DNA of 64,000 nucleotides from positions 19,198 through 83,197 of the forward strand of contig DAOTUH010000126.1 in the NCBI GenBank assembly GCA_034437255.1, in the 5' to 3' direction. Shown piece by piece: positions 12,409 to 18,048 of the stretch (position 1 is the first letter of the stretch; the number at the start of each line of letters is the position of its first letter). A model generated the notes under the pieces. It saw nothing but the letters and a program-made list of their open reading frames with translations, was not told the DNA's origin and ran no database searches. The position numbers and the translations under genes were made by a program. This stretch comes from Anaerolineae bacterium (GTDB taxonomy: Bacteria > Chloroflexota > Anaerolineae > B4-G1 > SLSP01).

Positions 12409-14375
12409 ACAGGCTTCAGGCTCTTGAGCAGATTCGTCGCCATCTCCGCCATGGCCTCCAGGAACTGCGCCCGGTTGATCTGGGCCTCCTTGACCATGTC
12501 GGCGTGAATCTTCCACAGCACCTCGTCGACACCGCCGTCCGCTTTCTCCGGCACATAGCTCTGGATGTCCCCGTCAAACTCGATACGCGTCAACGCACGC
12601 GGCGTCGCCGCAGCCTCTGCATCTTTGATGACAGCTGCGAGATCCTCAGTGGTGTAAGTTTCCACCTCCAGCGTGGGGATCTCCTCGGCGGCTTTGCCCA
12701 GCGCCTCCGCCAGTTGATCGGTGAAGGTGCGCAGCGAGTCGGTCAGCCCGGCGAACTGATCCCGCAGGCCGAAGGCGACGGCGTAGTCCTCGGCTCCTGA
12801 TGGCTCTGGTGCGAGCGCCGTGGTCGGTTCGCTTTCTTCCGAGGGTGCTGAGGCGGCTTCGCTCTCTGCTTCTGCCAGCTTCTCTTTTGTGCTCTCGCTG
12901 ATAGTGATGGTGGGACGCTCCGTCTGCGGGCTCTCTTCGTCCTCCGCCACCGAGAGGCGCACCGCCGGATCGCCGATGATGACGTAGCCGCGCGCGTCGT
13001 TGTTCGCCGTCCACATACCCGCTAGCTTCACGTCGTCGCGCCGCTTGTCGAACTCGTTGACCTCCTCGATCTCGCTGGCCAGCACCACGGAGAGCTCGGC
13101 GTGGCGCTCGTTGAACCACTCCAGAGCCGCGCCCACGGGATAACCGGCCATCAGCTGATCCAGCGTGTCTTGAAAGACCTGTAACTGGCGCCCTGCCCCG
13201 CTCCACAGGAAAGAGTATCCCCAGGCGCGCTCGACGTGGCCCACGACGGCCAACGCGCCGCCCTTGGGATGGCCCAGGAGCCGTTGCGGCAACCGCGCGA
13301 TAAAGGCGTGGGGCGCGATCTCGGCCGGCTCATCAAAGGCCCTGTGCGCAAACTGATCCAGCTTGGGCGTTCCCGCACCGTAGCAGGCGAAGAAGAAAGC
13401 CATGGTGCCGGCCAGCCGCGCGTTCGAGGCGACGTCATCGGCCGAGAAGTAGAACGCCTCAGGAATCGGATCGTGCCACTCACGGGGGCCAGGCCAATCC
13501 TCACAGAGCAGCGCGCCCTGGTGCTTGAGCTGGCGCGGGTCTCCTTTGGGAAAGCCCATCCCGTGACTGGCCGAGAAGAACAGTACCGGCGTCCCGTCGC
13601 CGCCCAACAGCGTTTCGAGACGCGCCTTGGTCGCCTGCCCGATGAACTGGCTATCCCACGACGGCTGTTTGTCCGACATGGCCTCGACCAGGGGACGCAC
13701 CAACTCCTTGGCACTCATCTCCGTCGCCCGGTCGTGCTGGTTCTTCACACCAAAGAATCGCGCGCGACGCGGCAGCCGTAAATCGCCGGTCTCCGCTGCC
13801 ACCACACTCTCCGCATACTGCGCGTACTCCTCGAGCGTGTCGAAGAAAATGCGCCCGACGGCATACTGCACGTCGAGCTGATACTGGAAGCGGTAGGGAA
13901 TCGTCTCTGGCCCGCCGACGATCAGCAGATAGTAGGGCACTTTGGCGGGATTGGCCGGCCCCGGCCCCATGTTGCGCGGATCGCGGCCCAAGAAATCCAA
14001 GTAGGAGTCGGCCGGCCGGTAGCCCGCCGCGCGCATGTACTCCTGATAGAATCGTTCGTCGTCCTGCGTGGCCTGCTCCTTGCGCAGATCCAACAGCGGC
14101 TTGAGGGCCTCACGGATCGCCGGGGCCCGTTCGTCCTTTGCTCCGAAAATTACGGCCCATCCCGTCTCCGCCAGGTTCGTCTGATCGGCATTGATGCCAA
14201 AATGTGGCTGCATGCTGTCATGGCGATTCTTCAACTCCCGGTAATACTCGTCATCTTTGCTCAAGGGCTCGCCCAGCGCGACCGACGCCACGTCCTCAGG
14301 CAGCATGGGCGGCGTCCAATACTTCCCGCTGGCACCATTGATACCATTGACGTAAAGCAGCTTCTCTTCATTCAT
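12405..14375 (-). CDS. Clan CD caspase/gingipain-like cysteine peptidase with extra C-terminal domain
   Basis: His motif LFFSASHGMGFP and Cys motif FFFACYGAGTP in the order and spacing typical of C14/C25 peptidases. ATG at 14375 overlaps the NTPase stop by 8 nt. Confidence 0.75.
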   Translation of the reverse strand: MNEEKLLYVNGINGASGKYWTPPMLPEDVASVALGEPLSKDDEYYRELKNRHDSMQPHFGINADQTNLAETGWAVIFGAKDERAPAIREALKPLLDLRKEQATQDDERFYQEYMRAAGYRPADSYLDFLGRDPRNMGPGPANPAKVPYYLLIVGGPETIPYRFQYQLDVQYAVGRIFFDTLEEYAQYAESVVAAETGDLRLPRRARFFGVKNQHDRATEMSAKELVRPLVEAMSDKQPSWDSQFIGQATKARLETLLGGDGTPVLFFSASHGMGFPKGDPRQLKHQGALLCEDWPGPREWHDPIPEAFYFSADDVASNARLAGTMAFFFACYGAGTPKLDQFAHRAFDEPAEIAPHAFIARLPQRLLGHPKGGALAVVGHVERAWGYSFLWSGAGRQLQVFQDTLDQLMAGYPVGAALEWFNERHAELSVVLASEIEEVNEFDKRRDDVKLAGMWTANNDARGYVIIGDPAVRLSVAEDEESPQTERPTITISESTKEKLAEAESEAASAPSEESEPTTALAPEPSGAEDYAVAFGLRDQFAGLTDSLRTFTDQLAEALGKAAEEIPTLEVETYTTEDLAAVIKDAEAAATPRALTRIEFDGDIQSYVPEKADGGVDEVLWKIHADMVKEAQINRAQFLEAMAEMATNLLKSLKPV

Positions 14376-17300: not shown

Positions 17301-18048
17301 CCTCAACCTCGTCGTCGCGCCCATACCGCTGCACCTTGCTGCGTCGCAGGTCGTCGACCAGGCGCTCGGCCACGCCCTCGTCGAAGGGAACGCCGGTCTG
17401 GGCCGCCGGCTTGCGGACGGCTTGGATGGCGCCCTCGACGCCCAGCCGCTCCATACGGAAGCGAGCGCGGAGCCGGCGGGGCAGCAGCGGCGCGTAGGGC
17501 TCGACTTCGGCAACGTAATCCTCCCGCATGGCAAAGACCACGCCCAACGTGGGCAGCGCGTCCAACGCCCCCTCAACCTGGACGAAGAAACTCTCGGCGT
17601 CCTGCCAGCGGTGGCGGTGCGCCGTAAAGAGCTCCTCGAACTGATCGACGATGAGCAGCGGCGGGCGGTCGTCATCGGGCAGATACGTCTGCAAGAAATC
17701 GAGCAGGGACTGTTCGCCCAGTGGCGCCGGCGGCTCGTCCTCGCCGACCAGCGAGAGCAGCACACTGAAGACGAAGACGTTGTCCACGTCCGCGTCGGTC
17801 AGGCCGGGCGGCAGATCGTTGGCGACGCGCACCACGGGCAGCACGTTGAAAAGCTCCTCCTCCAGCGCGAGGATGACCTCGGCGTTGAGCAATGACGTCT
17901 TGCCGGCGCCAGAGGGCGCGTAGAAGAGCACCACGCGCTCGGCCAGGATCAGGGAGAGCAAGTCGCGTGCCTCGCGGTTGCGCCCGAAGAAATTCTTGCG
18001 GTCGGCGCGCTCGTAGGGGCGGGGACCGACGTAGGGATTTCCTTTCAT
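14368..18048 (-). CDS. STAND-like (nSTAND1-like N-terminus) P-loop NTPase - single TM helix - WD40 beta-propeller
   Basis: The N-terminus [31 protein letters not shown]...[16 protein letters not shown] shows an nSTAND-like signature. Hydrophobic helix [22 protein letters not shown] near residue 480. At least 10 WD40 repeats ([31 protein letters not shown] and others). Start ATG 18048 overlaps the upstream stop as ATGA. Confidence 0.85.
   Translation of the reverse strand: [1226 protein letters not shown]

What the first reader, a model, noticed from the sequence alone, without database searches (positions are those of the whole stretch)
14368..18048. The STAND-like NTPase has one predicted transmembrane helix between the NTPase module and the WD40 propellers
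A 22-residue hydrophobic stretch ([22 protein letters not shown]) follows the helical region of the NTPase and precedes at least 10 WD40 blades. This implies a cytoplasmic NTPase and an extracytoplasmic WD40 sensor, which would put the operon under control of an envelope or extracellular signal.
Basis: partly seen in the sequence, partly recalled or inferred. Interest (0 to 1): 0.5.

Follow-up and report, generated by a model that had tools for sequence, protein, structure and literature searches.

The report
Membrane-spanning STAND NTPase with outside WD40 sensor
The gene encodes an Apaf-1-like ATPase switch that very probably crosses the membrane once, leaving its ATPase inside and about 14 WD40 blades outside; this layout is normal for its very large but unstudied family, which is usually paired with an NAD-destroying SIR2 effector.

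Summary
Gene 14368..18048 (-) encodes a 1226-aa protein with four parts: an nSTAND1 NTPase (aa 1-456), one 22-residue uncharged stretch (aa 457-478, DNA 16615..16680), a helical stalk, and about 14 WD40 blades.

The stretch behaves like a membrane helix:
- Kyte-Doolittle 19-residue mean is 2.56. The simple Hessa sum is -2.0 kcal/mol.
- An Arg cluster precedes it.
- AF2 models one continuous helix through it.

It is typical of the family:
- 169 of 198 close homologues have exactly one such segment at the same place. Relatives only 24-33% identical, in Streptomyces and Nonomuraea, have it too.
- Only hydrophobicity is conserved, not sequence.
- Flanking charges follow the positive-inside rule in 76 of 85 homologues.

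Domains after the helix are mostly exported types: FGE-sulfatase, PD40, M23, subtilase, ricin lectin. cNMP-binding and SIR2 fusions lack the helix.

So the N-in/C-out reading is well supported, though not proven. FHA and caspase-like domains that follow the helix in a few homologues remain unexplained.

The gene overlaps (ATGA, or 8 nt) with neighbouring CHAT-SIR2, caspase-like peptidase and 254-aa genes. A SIR2 gene sits just upstream of 44 of 50 related genes. It controls effector proteins rather than transcription. It is a typical member of a known family with a topology little discussed in print.

The parts
14368..18048 (-). Gene for the nSTAND1-TM-WD40 protein (1226 aa from the ATG at 18048; an alternative GTG at 18066 gives 1232 aa)
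   Evidence: ORF. The ATGA overlap with the upstream stop codon is visible.
16681..18048 (-). Cytoplasmic NTPase module, aa 1-456: P-loop domain, helical domain, winged helix and a helical extension. Walker A is GAGKTS at aa 47. Walker B is LLIVDQFEE at aa 131.
   Evidence: Pfam PF20703, 125 bits. Invariant G47, G49, K50, S52, D135, E138 and E139 in 46 sequences. Motif positions. AF2 mean pLDDT 91. Best Foldseek PDB hits are Apaf-1, ORC/Cdc6, Dark and CED-4.
16681..16725 (-). Arg-rich cluster [15 protein letters not shown] (aa 442-456), immediately N-terminal to the hydrophobic stretch. It acts as the positive-inside determinant.
   Evidence: 7 K/R on the N-side flank against 3 on the C-side flank in the window protein. 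The family-wide means are 5.3 and 2.5; Wilcoxon p 5e-14.
16615..16680 (-). Predicted single transmembrane helix [22 protein letters not shown] (aa 457-478)
   Evidence: KD19 2.56 and Hessa sum -2.0 kcal/mol. Longest uncharged run in the protein. Part of one continuous AF2 helix, aa 433-495. Present at the same place in 169 of 198 homologues. Absent as a clean indel in the TM-less variants P0053 and P0070.
16408..16614 (-). Helical stalk or pre-WD40 linker (aa 479-547), predicted to be extracytoplasmic
   Evidence: AF2 helices 479-495, 501-512, 518-528 and 534-547. The SRELAA..A...D...LA motif is kept in both TM-containing and TM-less WD40 homologues.
14467..16383 (-). WD40 region (aa about 556-1194) with about 14 blades, consistent with two 7-bladed propellers. 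This is the predicted extracytoplasmic sensor.
   Evidence: Pfam WD40 E 4.5e-107 with 10 scored stretches. Blade-by-blade parse. First strands are modelled. The two-propeller arrangement is inferred and was not modelled.
18045..20186 (-). Upstream gene for the CHAT (caspase-like protease) plus SIR2_2 effector. Its stop codon overlaps the NTPase ATG.
   Evidence: Pfam CHAT E 9e-30 and SIR2_2 E 1e-20. PADLOC ThsA-type SIR2 E 4e-11. Motifs HYVGHG, NACQS and YHLFGH are present. A SIR2 gene ends within 400 nt upstream of 44 of 50 related nSTAND1 genes.
12405..14375 (-). Downstream gene for a 656-aa clan-CD (Peptidase_C25-like) peptidase. It has no hydrophobic N-terminus and overlaps the NTPase gene's 3' end by 8 nt.
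   Evidence: Weak Pfam C25 hit, E 8e-4. SASHGMG and FACYGAG dyad motifs. Maximum KD19 is 0.96. The same domain is fused directly to nSTAND1 in P0049, P0054, P0160 and P0167. It is encoded downstream of an nSTAND1-WD40 gene in L004 and L017, with a partial copy at the contig end in L008.
11644..12408 (-). Fourth gene, with an ATGA overlap. It encodes a 254-aa protein with no family match.
   Evidence: No Pfam, NCBIfam or PADLOC hit. Homologues lie next to C25-like genes in L017 (43% identity) and L032 (28%).

Best explanation
The protein is a single-pass membrane receptor built on an Apaf-1-like STAND chassis. The nSTAND1 ATPase module (aa 1-456) is cytoplasmic. One helix (aa 457-478) spans the membrane with N-in/C-out orientation. 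A helical stalk and about 14 WD40 blades lie outside the cytoplasmic membrane.

The gene is the second of four overlapping genes. The others encode cytoplasmic effector candidates: a CHAT protease fused to a SIR2-type domain, a caspase-like clan-CD peptidase, and a 254-aa protein of unknown function.

The most likely mechanism is as follows. A ligand binds the ectodomain; it could be a phage particle, a cell-wall fragment or a foreign cell-surface molecule. A single helix rules out the direct sensor-on-NOD clamp seen in Apaf-1. The ligand would therefore act by clustering or re-orienting receptors, and this would permit ATP-dependent oligomerisation of the cytoplasmic NOD. The oligomer would then recruit or activate the SIR2 and protease effectors, causing NAD+ depletion, proteolysis, and growth arrest or death of the cell.

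Shown here: the domain order; the hydrophobic helix and its conservation; the charge bias; the partition of partner domains; the gene overlaps and the SIR2 linkage; intact Walker and catalytic motifs.

Inferred: membrane insertion and orientation; the ligand; clustering as the trigger; NADase and protease activities; the defence or cell-death role.
For: - Hydrophobicity: KD19 is 2.56 and the Hessa sum is -2.0 kcal/mol, far above any other window in the protein.
- Conservation of place, not sequence: 169 of 198 homologues have one segment, at a median of 6 residues after the NTPase module. The consensus over the helix has no conserved residue.
- Depth of conservation: the helix is kept in relatives of 24-33% identity from Actinomycetota. 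The family also occurs in Chloroflexota, Acidobacteriota, Verrucomicrobiota, Planctomycetota and Proteobacteria.
- Positive-inside rule: N>C in 76 of 85 homologues, p 5e-14.
- Partner domains behind the helix: FGE-sulfatase 17/17, PD40 9/9, M23 5/5, M14 3/3, DUF1566 3/3, Calx-beta 3/3, beta-helix 1/1. cNMP-binding 0/3 and SIR2 0/1 have it.
- Further partners behind a helix: subtilase S8, and Flg_new plus ricin lectin. A TPR-pentapeptide variant has no helix.
- Clean indel: TM-less WD40 variants lack exactly the Arg cluster and the hydrophobic stretch.
- Structure: the AF2 model (pLDDT 91) has one continuous 63-residue helix through the segment. The NOD resembles Apaf-1, CED-4 and ORC.
- Operon: ATGA overlaps are visible in the sequence.
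- Effector linkage: CHAT-SIR2 or SIR2 lies directly upstream in 44 of 50 related genes, and 33 of the 37 with a sufficient C-terminal tail have the TM.
- Domain fusions: nSTAND1 is fused to SIR2_2 (P0084) and to the C25-like domain (P0049, P0054).
Against: - No dedicated topology predictor or experiment was available. My hydrophobicity measures are simple ones.
- Five homologues carry a canonical FHA domain (GR, SRxH and NGT motifs) after the helix. Two carry the clan-CD peptidase domain there. Both are normally cytoplasmic.
- WD40, TPR and C25-like domains occur with and without the helix, so the domain type does not fix the compartment.
- No PADLOC defence model matches the NTPase module; the only hit for this protein falls in its WD40 region. 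No effector-associated adaptor domain was detected in either partner.
- No ligand, activity or phenotype is known for any family member in the papers I could search.
Confidence: 0.6

Rival explanations
1. The protein does span the membrane, but it is not an immune sensor. The WD40 ectodomain would serve as an envelope scaffold, or as a cell-cell contact or kin-recognition receptor. It would govern developmental or social cell death in filamentous, multicellular bacteria.
For: The family is concentrated in filamentous or multicellular lineages such as Anaerolineae, Chloroflexia, Streptomyces, Nonomuraea and Frankia. Kaur et al. link such systems to multicellularity (PMC7159879). Ectodomains include peptidoglycan-active M23 and M14 domains and lectins. 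The NTPase module matches no PADLOC model. The best NCBIfam hit for the CHAT part is the cyanobacterial cell-division protein HetF.
Against: The SIR2 and caspase-like partners, and the tandem arrays of paralogues with diversified sensors next to a GT4-conflict gene, match the pattern described for counter-invader systems. Nothing here separates the two roles, and they are not mutually exclusive.
Confidence: 0.2
2. The hydrophobic helix is not membrane-spanning and the whole protein is cytoplasmic, like Apaf-1. The helix would be an oligomerisation core or a peripheral or re-entrant membrane tether.
For: Canonical FHA and clan-CD peptidase domains follow the helix in some homologues. G-beta-type WD40 repeats are classically cytosolic. 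TM-less WD40 variants exist (P0053, P0070). A shuffle of the protein gives an equally hydrophobic window in 1.1% of trials.
Against: - A run of 20-28 uncharged residues preceded by an Arg cluster is conserved in hydrophobicity but not in sequence. That pattern fits a lipid-facing helix, not a protein interface.
- The family-wide charge asymmetry is strong.
- Typically exported domains (M23, S8, ricin lectin, Flg_new, DUF1566, Calx-beta) occur only behind the helix, and cNMP-binding domains occur only without it.
- The stretch is too short for a helical hairpin.
Confidence: 0.12
3. The literal first-reader reading: a transmembrane regulator that puts transcription of the operon under control of an envelope signal.
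For: Some STAND proteins, such as MalT and AfsR, are transcription factors (general knowledge). The gene lies in an operon.
Against: Pfam and NCBIfam find no HTH or other DNA-binding output domain. The cytoplasmic part is only the NOD. The conserved neighbours are enzymes, and their genes overlap the receptor gene.
Confidence: 0.03

Closest known systems
nSTAND1 clade of STAND NTPases (Pfam PF20703; named by Kaur, Iyer, Burroughs and Aravind 2021, PMC8195603)
   Same: The NTPase module scores 125 bits against a cut-off of 27. It has C-terminal repeat or FGE-type sensor domains, caspase- and SIR2-type partners, and occurs mainly in multicellular bacteria.
   Different: The main text of that paper does not mention a transmembrane helix between the NTPase and the sensor. 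No effector-associated adaptor domain (EAD or Death-like) is detectable here. The link to the effector is by overlapping genes and domain fusions instead.
Apaf-1, Dark and CED-4 apoptosome proteins
   Same: The order is NOD then WD40 propellers, with a caspase-type protease as output. The AF2 model's best PDB matches are Apaf-1 (E 3.5e-8), Dark and CED-4.
   Different: Apaf-1 is soluble, and its propellers fold back onto the NOD and bind cytochrome c in the cytosol. Here a membrane helix separates the two, so autoinhibition by direct contact is impossible. There is no CARD. Sequence identity is 12-13%.
Bacterial antiviral STANDs (Avs, bNACHT), including the 'TM regions' class of bNACHT sensors (Kibby et al., bioRxiv 10.1101/2022.07.19.500537)
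   Same: These are STAND switches coupled to SIR2, protease or nuclease effectors. [quoted passage not shown] Dore et al. 2024 predict a periplasmic CLec domain for one NACHT-type DGR target.
   Different: They belong to a different NTPase clade, and no PADLOC Avs or bNACHT model hits. The characterised members sense phage proteins inside the cell (PMC13581612). The bNACHT TM class is described as having multiple TM regions, not a single pass followed by a large ectodomain.
Receptor Ser/Thr kinases such as M. tuberculosis PknD (kinase, one TM helix, extracellular beta-propeller) and PknB (PASTA domains); from general knowledge, not tested here
   Same: They have a cytoplasmic catalytic or signalling module, a single helix with N-in/C-out orientation, and a large extracytoplasmic repeat sensor. 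Activation by ligand-driven dimerisation or clustering is the natural model.
   Different: The output module is a kinase, not an oligomerising ATPase. There is no homology.
Prokaryotic metacaspases with 'iTMHo' architectures (Asplund-Samuelsson et al. 2012, PMC3501461)
   Same: A cytoplasmic death-type module is followed by a TM helix predicted as inside-to-outside, then extracellular receptor domains. WD40 and FGE-sulfatase are frequent partners.
   Different: There the protease itself is fused to the helix. Here an NTPase switch sits between the sensor and separate effector proteins.
Thoeris ThsA- and DSR-type SIR2 NADase effectors
   Same: The SIR2_2 domain of the upstream protein matches PADLOC ThsA models (E 4e-11).
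   Different: This is domain-level similarity only. There is no SLOG or ThsB partner. Here the domain is fused to CHAT and paired with nSTAND1.

Membership tests
nSTAND1 STAND NTPase (PF20703) | Match to the family HMM above the curated cut-off | tested here: met
   125.1 bits against a cut-off of 27.1, E 6.9e-36, covering profile positions 1-374 of 379.
nSTAND1 STAND NTPase (PF20703) | Intact Walker A (GxxGxGK[ST]) and Walker B (hhhhD followed by acidic residues) | tested here: met
   GAGKTS at aa 47 and LLIVDQFEE at aa 131. G47, G49, K50, S52, D135, E138 and E139 are invariant in 46 sequences.
nSTAND1 STAND NTPase (PF20703) | STAND fold: P-loop NBD, helical domain and winged helix, followed by a sensor region | tested here: met
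   AF2 mean pLDDT 91.2. Foldseek top PDB hits are Apaf-1, ORC/Cdc6, Dark and CED-4. WD40 sensor.
nSTAND1 STAND NTPase (PF20703) | Nucleotide-dependent oligomerisation switch | not testable with these tools
   Needs biochemistry or cryo-EM.
Bitopic (single-pass, N-in/C-out) membrane protein | One stretch of at least 19 hydrophobic residues with a favourable insertion score | tested here: met
   22 uncharged residues, KD19 2.56, Hessa sum -2.0 kcal/mol. No second candidate exceeds 1.44.
Bitopic (single-pass, N-in/C-out) membrane protein | Positive-inside charge asymmetry | tested here: met
   Window protein: 7 K/R on the N-side and 3 on the C-side. Family: means 5.3 and 2.5, with N>C in 76 of 85, p 5e-14.
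Bitopic (single-pass, N-in/C-out) membrane protein | The segment is conserved in position and hydrophobicity among homologues | tested here: met
   169 of 198 homologues have exactly one segment. Genome homologues down to 24-33% identity keep it. No residue in it is conserved.
Bitopic (single-pass, N-in/C-out) membrane protein | The domains C-terminal to the helix are of exported types | tested here: inconclusive
   In favour: FGE, PD40, M23, M14, DUF1566, Calx-beta, S8, ricin lectin and Flg_new occur only behind a helix, and cNMP and SIR2 occur only without one. Against: FHA (5 proteins) and C25-like (2 proteins) follow the helix. WD40 itself occurs in both forms.
Bitopic (single-pass, N-in/C-out) membrane protein | A call by a trained topology predictor, or experimental topology | not testable with these tools
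   DeepTMHMM, Phobius and TOPCONS were not available, and there is no wet-lab access.
EAD/Death-like adaptor-coupled conflict systems (Kaur et al. 2020, 2021) | Matching effector-associated domains on the NTPase and on the effector | tested here: not met
   nSTAND1 starts at residue 5-11 with no N-terminal extension. No EAD or bDLD Pfam hit at E<=0.01 in the NTPase, CHAT-SIR2, C25-like or 254-aa proteins.
EAD/Death-like adaptor-coupled conflict systems (Kaur et al. 2020, 2021) | An NTPase switch in one operon with caspase-, SIR2- or TIR-type effectors, with variable sensors | tested here: met
   Overlapping CHAT-SIR2 and clan-CD peptidase genes. A SIR2 gene lies upstream of 44 of 50 related genes. 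Sensor variety.
Known anti-phage STAND systems (Avs, bNACHT; PADLOC-DB 2.0) | Match of the NTPase to a PADLOC model | tested here: not met
   The only hit for this protein is HEAT-ARM_XIII, and it lies in the WD40 part (aa 743-893). No hit covers the NTPase.

The most novel reading that the evidence does not exclude
Most of a very large STAND family may be outside-in receptors. The family has 25,016 cluster representatives at E<=1e-3. About 85% of the close relatives sampled carry the single helix. Such a receptor would be an Apaf-1-like ATPase switch whose sensor (WD40, FGE-sulfatase, lectin or peptidase) sits outside the cytoplasmic membrane and whose SIR2 and caspase-like effectors sit inside. 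These would be bacterial NLR-like proteins working with Toll-like-receptor or receptor-kinase logic. They could detect a phage, a foreign cell or envelope damage before anything enters the cytoplasm. Activation would be by clustering, not by release of an intramolecular clamp.
Probability: 0.5. Interest if true: 0.7.

Novelty: new member of a known kind. Interest (0 to 1): 0.42.

Why it matters
STAND/NLR-type receptors are treated as sensors of molecules inside the cell, in bacteria as in eukaryotes. The 2026 Nature survey (PMC13581612) frames them that way.

In this family, however, the membrane-spanning form with an outside sensor is the rule. That holds across at least six phyla, and the receptor gene is tightly linked to a SIR2 effector gene.

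If the predicted topology is confirmed, two consequences follow. First, this would be a class of surface-sensing immune or cell-death receptors with no characterised member. Second, it would pose a mechanistic question: how does an oligomerising ATPase read a ligand through a single helix?

For this window itself the result is modest. The gene is an ordinary member of that family.

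Tried and rejected
- **Exact-sequence look-up of the window protein:** not on record. The organism could not be named. The best relatives are Anaerolineae/Chloroflexota MAGs: 83% identity for a partial ENA protein, and 56% for the best genome locus.
- **Homologue search with only the helix plus linker** (aa 440-600 by GTG-start numbering), meant to find other N-terminal modules on the same TM-WD40 cassette: it returned nothing, although P0001 is about 80% identical there. This looks like a word-filter miss, so the question stays open.
- **Composition shuffle as a chance test:** weak, p about 0.011, because random shuffles cluster hydrophobic residues more than real proteins do. 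I replaced it with position-specific conservation.
- **PADLOC and NCBIfam naming of the NTPase, the C25-like protein and the 254-aa protein:** no useful hit.
- **Alignment A3 for modelling the WD40 part:** MAFFT misaligned it onto the NTPase columns, so I dropped it. The second structure job was not used, so 'two 7-bladed propellers' remains an inference.
- **P0149, first scored as a TM-less WD40 variant:** it has a weaker hydrophobic stretch, YGLTILFSLFVLGGLGWAW. Only P0053 and P0070 are clearly TM-less.
- **Transcription-factor reading:** rejected, because there is no DNA-binding domain.
- **Artefact of the ORF call or reading frame:** rejected. One frame runs through both Pfam domains, and homologues are collinear.

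Full report
**1. What is there**

The ORF listing gives one long ORF on the minus strand, 14368..18066, 1232 aa from a GTG. I take that as the start: 1226 aa, and all numbering below uses it.

Pfam finds nSTAND1 (PF20703) with E 7e-36 and 125 bits against a cut-off of 27. It covers residues 11-411 in GTG numbering. Pfam also finds WD40 (E 4.5e-107, 10 scored repeats) in the C-terminal 650 residues. A blade-by-blade parse gives about 14 blades.

Walker A (GAGKTS, aa 47) and Walker B (LLIVDQFEE, aa 131) are intact. They are invariant in an alignment of 46 family members.

An AF2 model of aa 1-616 has mean pLDDT 91.2. Its best matches among solved structures are Apaf-1, ORC/Cdc6, Dark and CED-4. 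The NTPase is therefore a genuine STAND/AAA+-type switch.

**2. The hydrophobic segment**

[22 protein letters not shown] is aa 457-478, DNA 16615..16680.

- Its Kyte-Doolittle 19-residue mean is 2.56. The next best window in the protein scores 1.44.
- The simple sum on the Hessa biological scale is -2.0 kcal/mol. The next best is +6.6.
- It is the longest run without a charged or strongly polar residue: 22 residues, against 12 for the next.
- It is preceded by [15 protein letters not shown] and followed by [15 protein letters not shown].
- AF2 models one uninterrupted helix from aa 433 to 495 running through it. Three short helices (501-547) follow, then the first beta strands.

A composition shuffle alone is not strong evidence. 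229 of 20000 shuffles contain an equally hydrophobic window somewhere. The case therefore rests on homologues.

**3. Homologues**

The NTPase module alone (aa 1-456) finds 25,016 cluster representatives at E<=1e-3 and 3,591 at E<=1e-30, among 1.84 billion proteins. I analysed 233 close relatives.

Of the 198 that cover the end of the NTPase module and extend at least 150 residues beyond it:
- 169 have exactly one hydrophobic segment, starting at a median of 6 residues after the NTPase match;
- 13 have several;
- 16 have none.

The consensus across the segment has no conserved residue. Only hydrophobicity is kept.

In 85 homologues with adequate flanks, K+R in the 15 residues before the segment averages 5.3. 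After it the average is 2.5. N>C holds in 76 cases, the two are equal in 6, and N<C in 3 (Wilcoxon p 5e-14). This is the positive-inside pattern expected for N-in/C-out.

A scan of one genome per species found 65 loci. They come from Chloroflexota, Acidobacteriota, Verrucomicrobiota, Planctomycetota, Proteobacteria and Actinomycetota. Relatives of only 24-33% identity in Streptomyces, Nonomuraea and Nocardia still have the NTPase, one helix at about aa 450-490, then WD40.

**4. What follows the helix**

I classified C-terminal regions with seed domains taken from Pfam-annotated members.

| Domain after the NTPase | No helix | One helix | Several |
|---|---|---|---|
| WD40 | 3 | 84 | 2 |
| FGE-sulfatase | 0 | 17 | 0 |
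| PD40 | 0 | 9 | 0 |
| Peptidase M23 | 0 | 5 | 0 |
| Peptidase M14 | 0 | 3 | 0 |
| DUF1566 | 0 | 3 | 0 |
| Calx-beta | 0 | 2 | 1 |
| Beta-helix | 0 | 1 | 0 |
| TPR | 4 | 7 | 0 |
| cNMP-binding | 3 | 0 | 0 |
| SIR2_2 | 1 | 0 | 0 |
| C25-like | 4 | 2 | 0 |
| FHA | 1 | 4 | 0 |

- One of the three 'no helix' WD40 proteins, P0149, has a weaker hydrophobic stretch.
- The one 'no helix' FHA protein, P0103, has a borderline stretch.
- Among proteins the seeds did not classify, those with a helix carry a subtilase S8 domain (P0200), Flg_new repeats plus ricin lectin (P0218), or a FlaA-like domain (P0177). A variant without a helix carries TPR plus pentapeptide repeats (P0186).
- In the TM-less WD40 variants P0053 and P0070, exactly the Arg cluster and the hydrophobic stretch are missing. 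The flanking EEEFLxAS and SRELAA...D...LA motifs remain.
- In the cNMP variants, the cNMP domain begins where the helix would be.

The helix therefore behaves as a discrete cassette. It travels with domain types that normally work outside the cytoplasm, and it is absent from fusions to cytoplasmic ligand-binding or effector domains.

**5. What does not fit**

Five homologues (P0055, P0068, P0103, P0199, P0206) have an FHA domain after the hydrophobic stretch and no further TM. It carries the canonical GR, SRxH and NGT phosphothreonine-binding motifs.

P0138 and P0140 have the clan-CD peptidase domain after the helix. The same domain is fused without a helix in P0049, P0054, P0160 and P0167. 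In the window it is a separate protein with no signal peptide.

There are two possibilities. These domains may be used on both sides of the membrane. Alternatively, in some subgroups the stretch may not translocate the C-terminal part; in the FHA group it is 27-28 residues long and less hydrophobic. I could not resolve this, and it is my main reason for not rating the topology higher.

**6. Context**

Four genes on the minus strand overlap each other:
- CHAT plus SIR2_2, 18045..20186 (CHAT E 9e-30, SIR2_2 E 1e-20);
- the receptor, 14368..18048;
- a 656-aa Peptidase_C25-like protein, 12405..14375, overlapping the receptor gene's 3' end by 8 nt;
- a 254-aa protein with no family match, 11644..12408, with another ATGA overlap.

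The caspase-type His and Cys motifs of CHAT (HYVGHG, NACQS) and of the C25-like protein (SASHGMG, FACYGAG) are present. So is the SIR2 YHLFGH motif. None of the three partners has a convincing TM or signal sequence.

The linkage is conserved.
- A CHAT-SIR2 gene overlaps the start of the 68%-identical P0003 by 4 nt.
- Homologous CHAT-SIR2 genes lie in L003 and L005. SIR2-only genes lie directly upstream of P0070 (no helix) and P0080 (helix plus M14).
- Among genome loci with at least 35% identity, 44 of 50 nSTAND1 genes have a SIR2_2 gene ending within 400 nt upstream on the same strand. About 20 of these also have CHAT. Of the 37 SIR2-linked genes with enough C-terminal sequence, 33 have the helix.
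- L017, an Anaerolineae MAG, repeats all four genes.
- nSTAND1 is fused directly to SIR2_2 in P0084 and to the C25-like domain in P0049 and P0054.
- The actinobacterial relatives keep TM-WD40 but lack SIR2.
- Some loci hold tandem arrays of paralogues with different sensors, next to HEAT-cNMP and GT4-conflict genes.

**7. Mechanism**

The best-supported reading is a bitopic receptor. The NOD is inside, one helix crosses the membrane, and the stalk and propellers are outside. The effectors are cytoplasmic.

In Apaf-1 the propellers clamp the NOD directly. A single helix between the two forbids that. The likeliest trigger is therefore ligand-driven clustering or re-orientation, as in single-pass receptor kinases. 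NOD oligomerisation and activation of SIR2 and the proteases would follow. All of this is inference.

What was shown is the architecture, its conservation, the charge bias, the domain partition, the gene linkage and the intact motifs.

There is no DNA-binding output, so control would act on protein activity.

**8. Comparison with the literature**

- nSTAND1 was named by Kaur et al. 2021 as a STAND clade in counter-invader systems (PMC8195603). The main text of that paper, and of Kaur et al. 2020 (PMC7159879), does not describe a helix between this NTPase and its sensor.
- Dore et al. 2024 predict a periplasmic CLec domain for one NACHT-type DGR target.
- Asplund-Samuelsson et al. 2012 describe inside-TM-outside metacaspase architectures.
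- The 2026 Nature survey of defence STANDs shows WD40 and FGE sensors but frames sensing as intracellular.
- The systematic study of prokaryotic WD40 proteins does not discuss TM-linked forms.

The idea of periplasm-sensing STANDs is therefore on record. The architecture is visible in databases, and this gene is an ordinary member. What is little discussed is that the membrane-spanning form is the majority state of this family and that it is tightly coupled to SIR2.

**9. Verdict**

- Observation: confirmed.
- Interpretation: the topology is well supported but not proven. The regulatory phrasing is not supported.
- Novelty: new member of a known kind.
- Interest: moderate (0.42). It would be higher if the outside-in signalling reading is confirmed.

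Noticed in passing
window 11644..20186 (-): Four consecutive genes overlap: ATGA at 18045-18048 and at 12405-12408, and 8 nt at 14368-14375. This suggests translational coupling of CHAT-SIR2, the receptor, the C25-like peptidase and the 254-aa protein. The same four genes recur in L017, an Anaerolineae MAG.
   Followed up: partly
P0055, P0068, P0103, P0199, P0206 (homologues; no window coordinates): In these nSTAND1 proteins the hydrophobic stretch is followed by an FHA domain with canonical phosphothreonine-binding motifs (GR, SRxH, NGT) and no further TM. An extracytoplasmic FHA would be unusual.
   Followed up: partly
L003, L004, L030 (related loci): These loci hold tandem arrays of two to three nSTAND1 paralogues with different C-terminal sensors (WD40, cNMP-binding, none). 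The arrays are interleaved with CHAT-SIR2, C25-like, HEAT-cNMP and GT4-conflict genes, forming multi-receptor islands.
   Followed up: partly
L057-L071 (Streptomyces, Nonomuraea, Nocardia and others): Distant relatives (24-33% identity, about 1160-1240 aa) keep the NTPase-TM-WD40 order but have no SIR2 or CHAT gene upstream. Their effector partner, if any, was not identified.
   Followed up: no
window 8262..11222 (-): A 986-aa protein with Peptidase_M23 and four SH3_3 domains lies 420 nt downstream of the four-gene unit on the same strand. It has no hydrophobic N-terminus as the ORF is called. Its relation to the system is unknown, but M23 also occurs as an ectodomain of nSTAND1 homologues.
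   Followed up: no
window 995..6229 (-): A cluster of two radical-SAM/SPASM-type proteins, a short-chain dehydrogenase and a GT28/UDPGT-type glycosyltransferase. It may be a peptide- or glycolipid-modification cluster. An N_BRCA1_IG-domain protein lies at 6970..8169 (+).
   Followed up: no
window 12405..14375 (-), aa 480-656 of the product: The C25-like peptidase ends in an acidic, Ser/Glu/Ala/Pro-rich low-complexity stretch followed by a helical tail of about 130 residues. The tail also aligns to the fusion protein P0167 (aa 1003-1098). It may be an interaction module.
   Followed up: no
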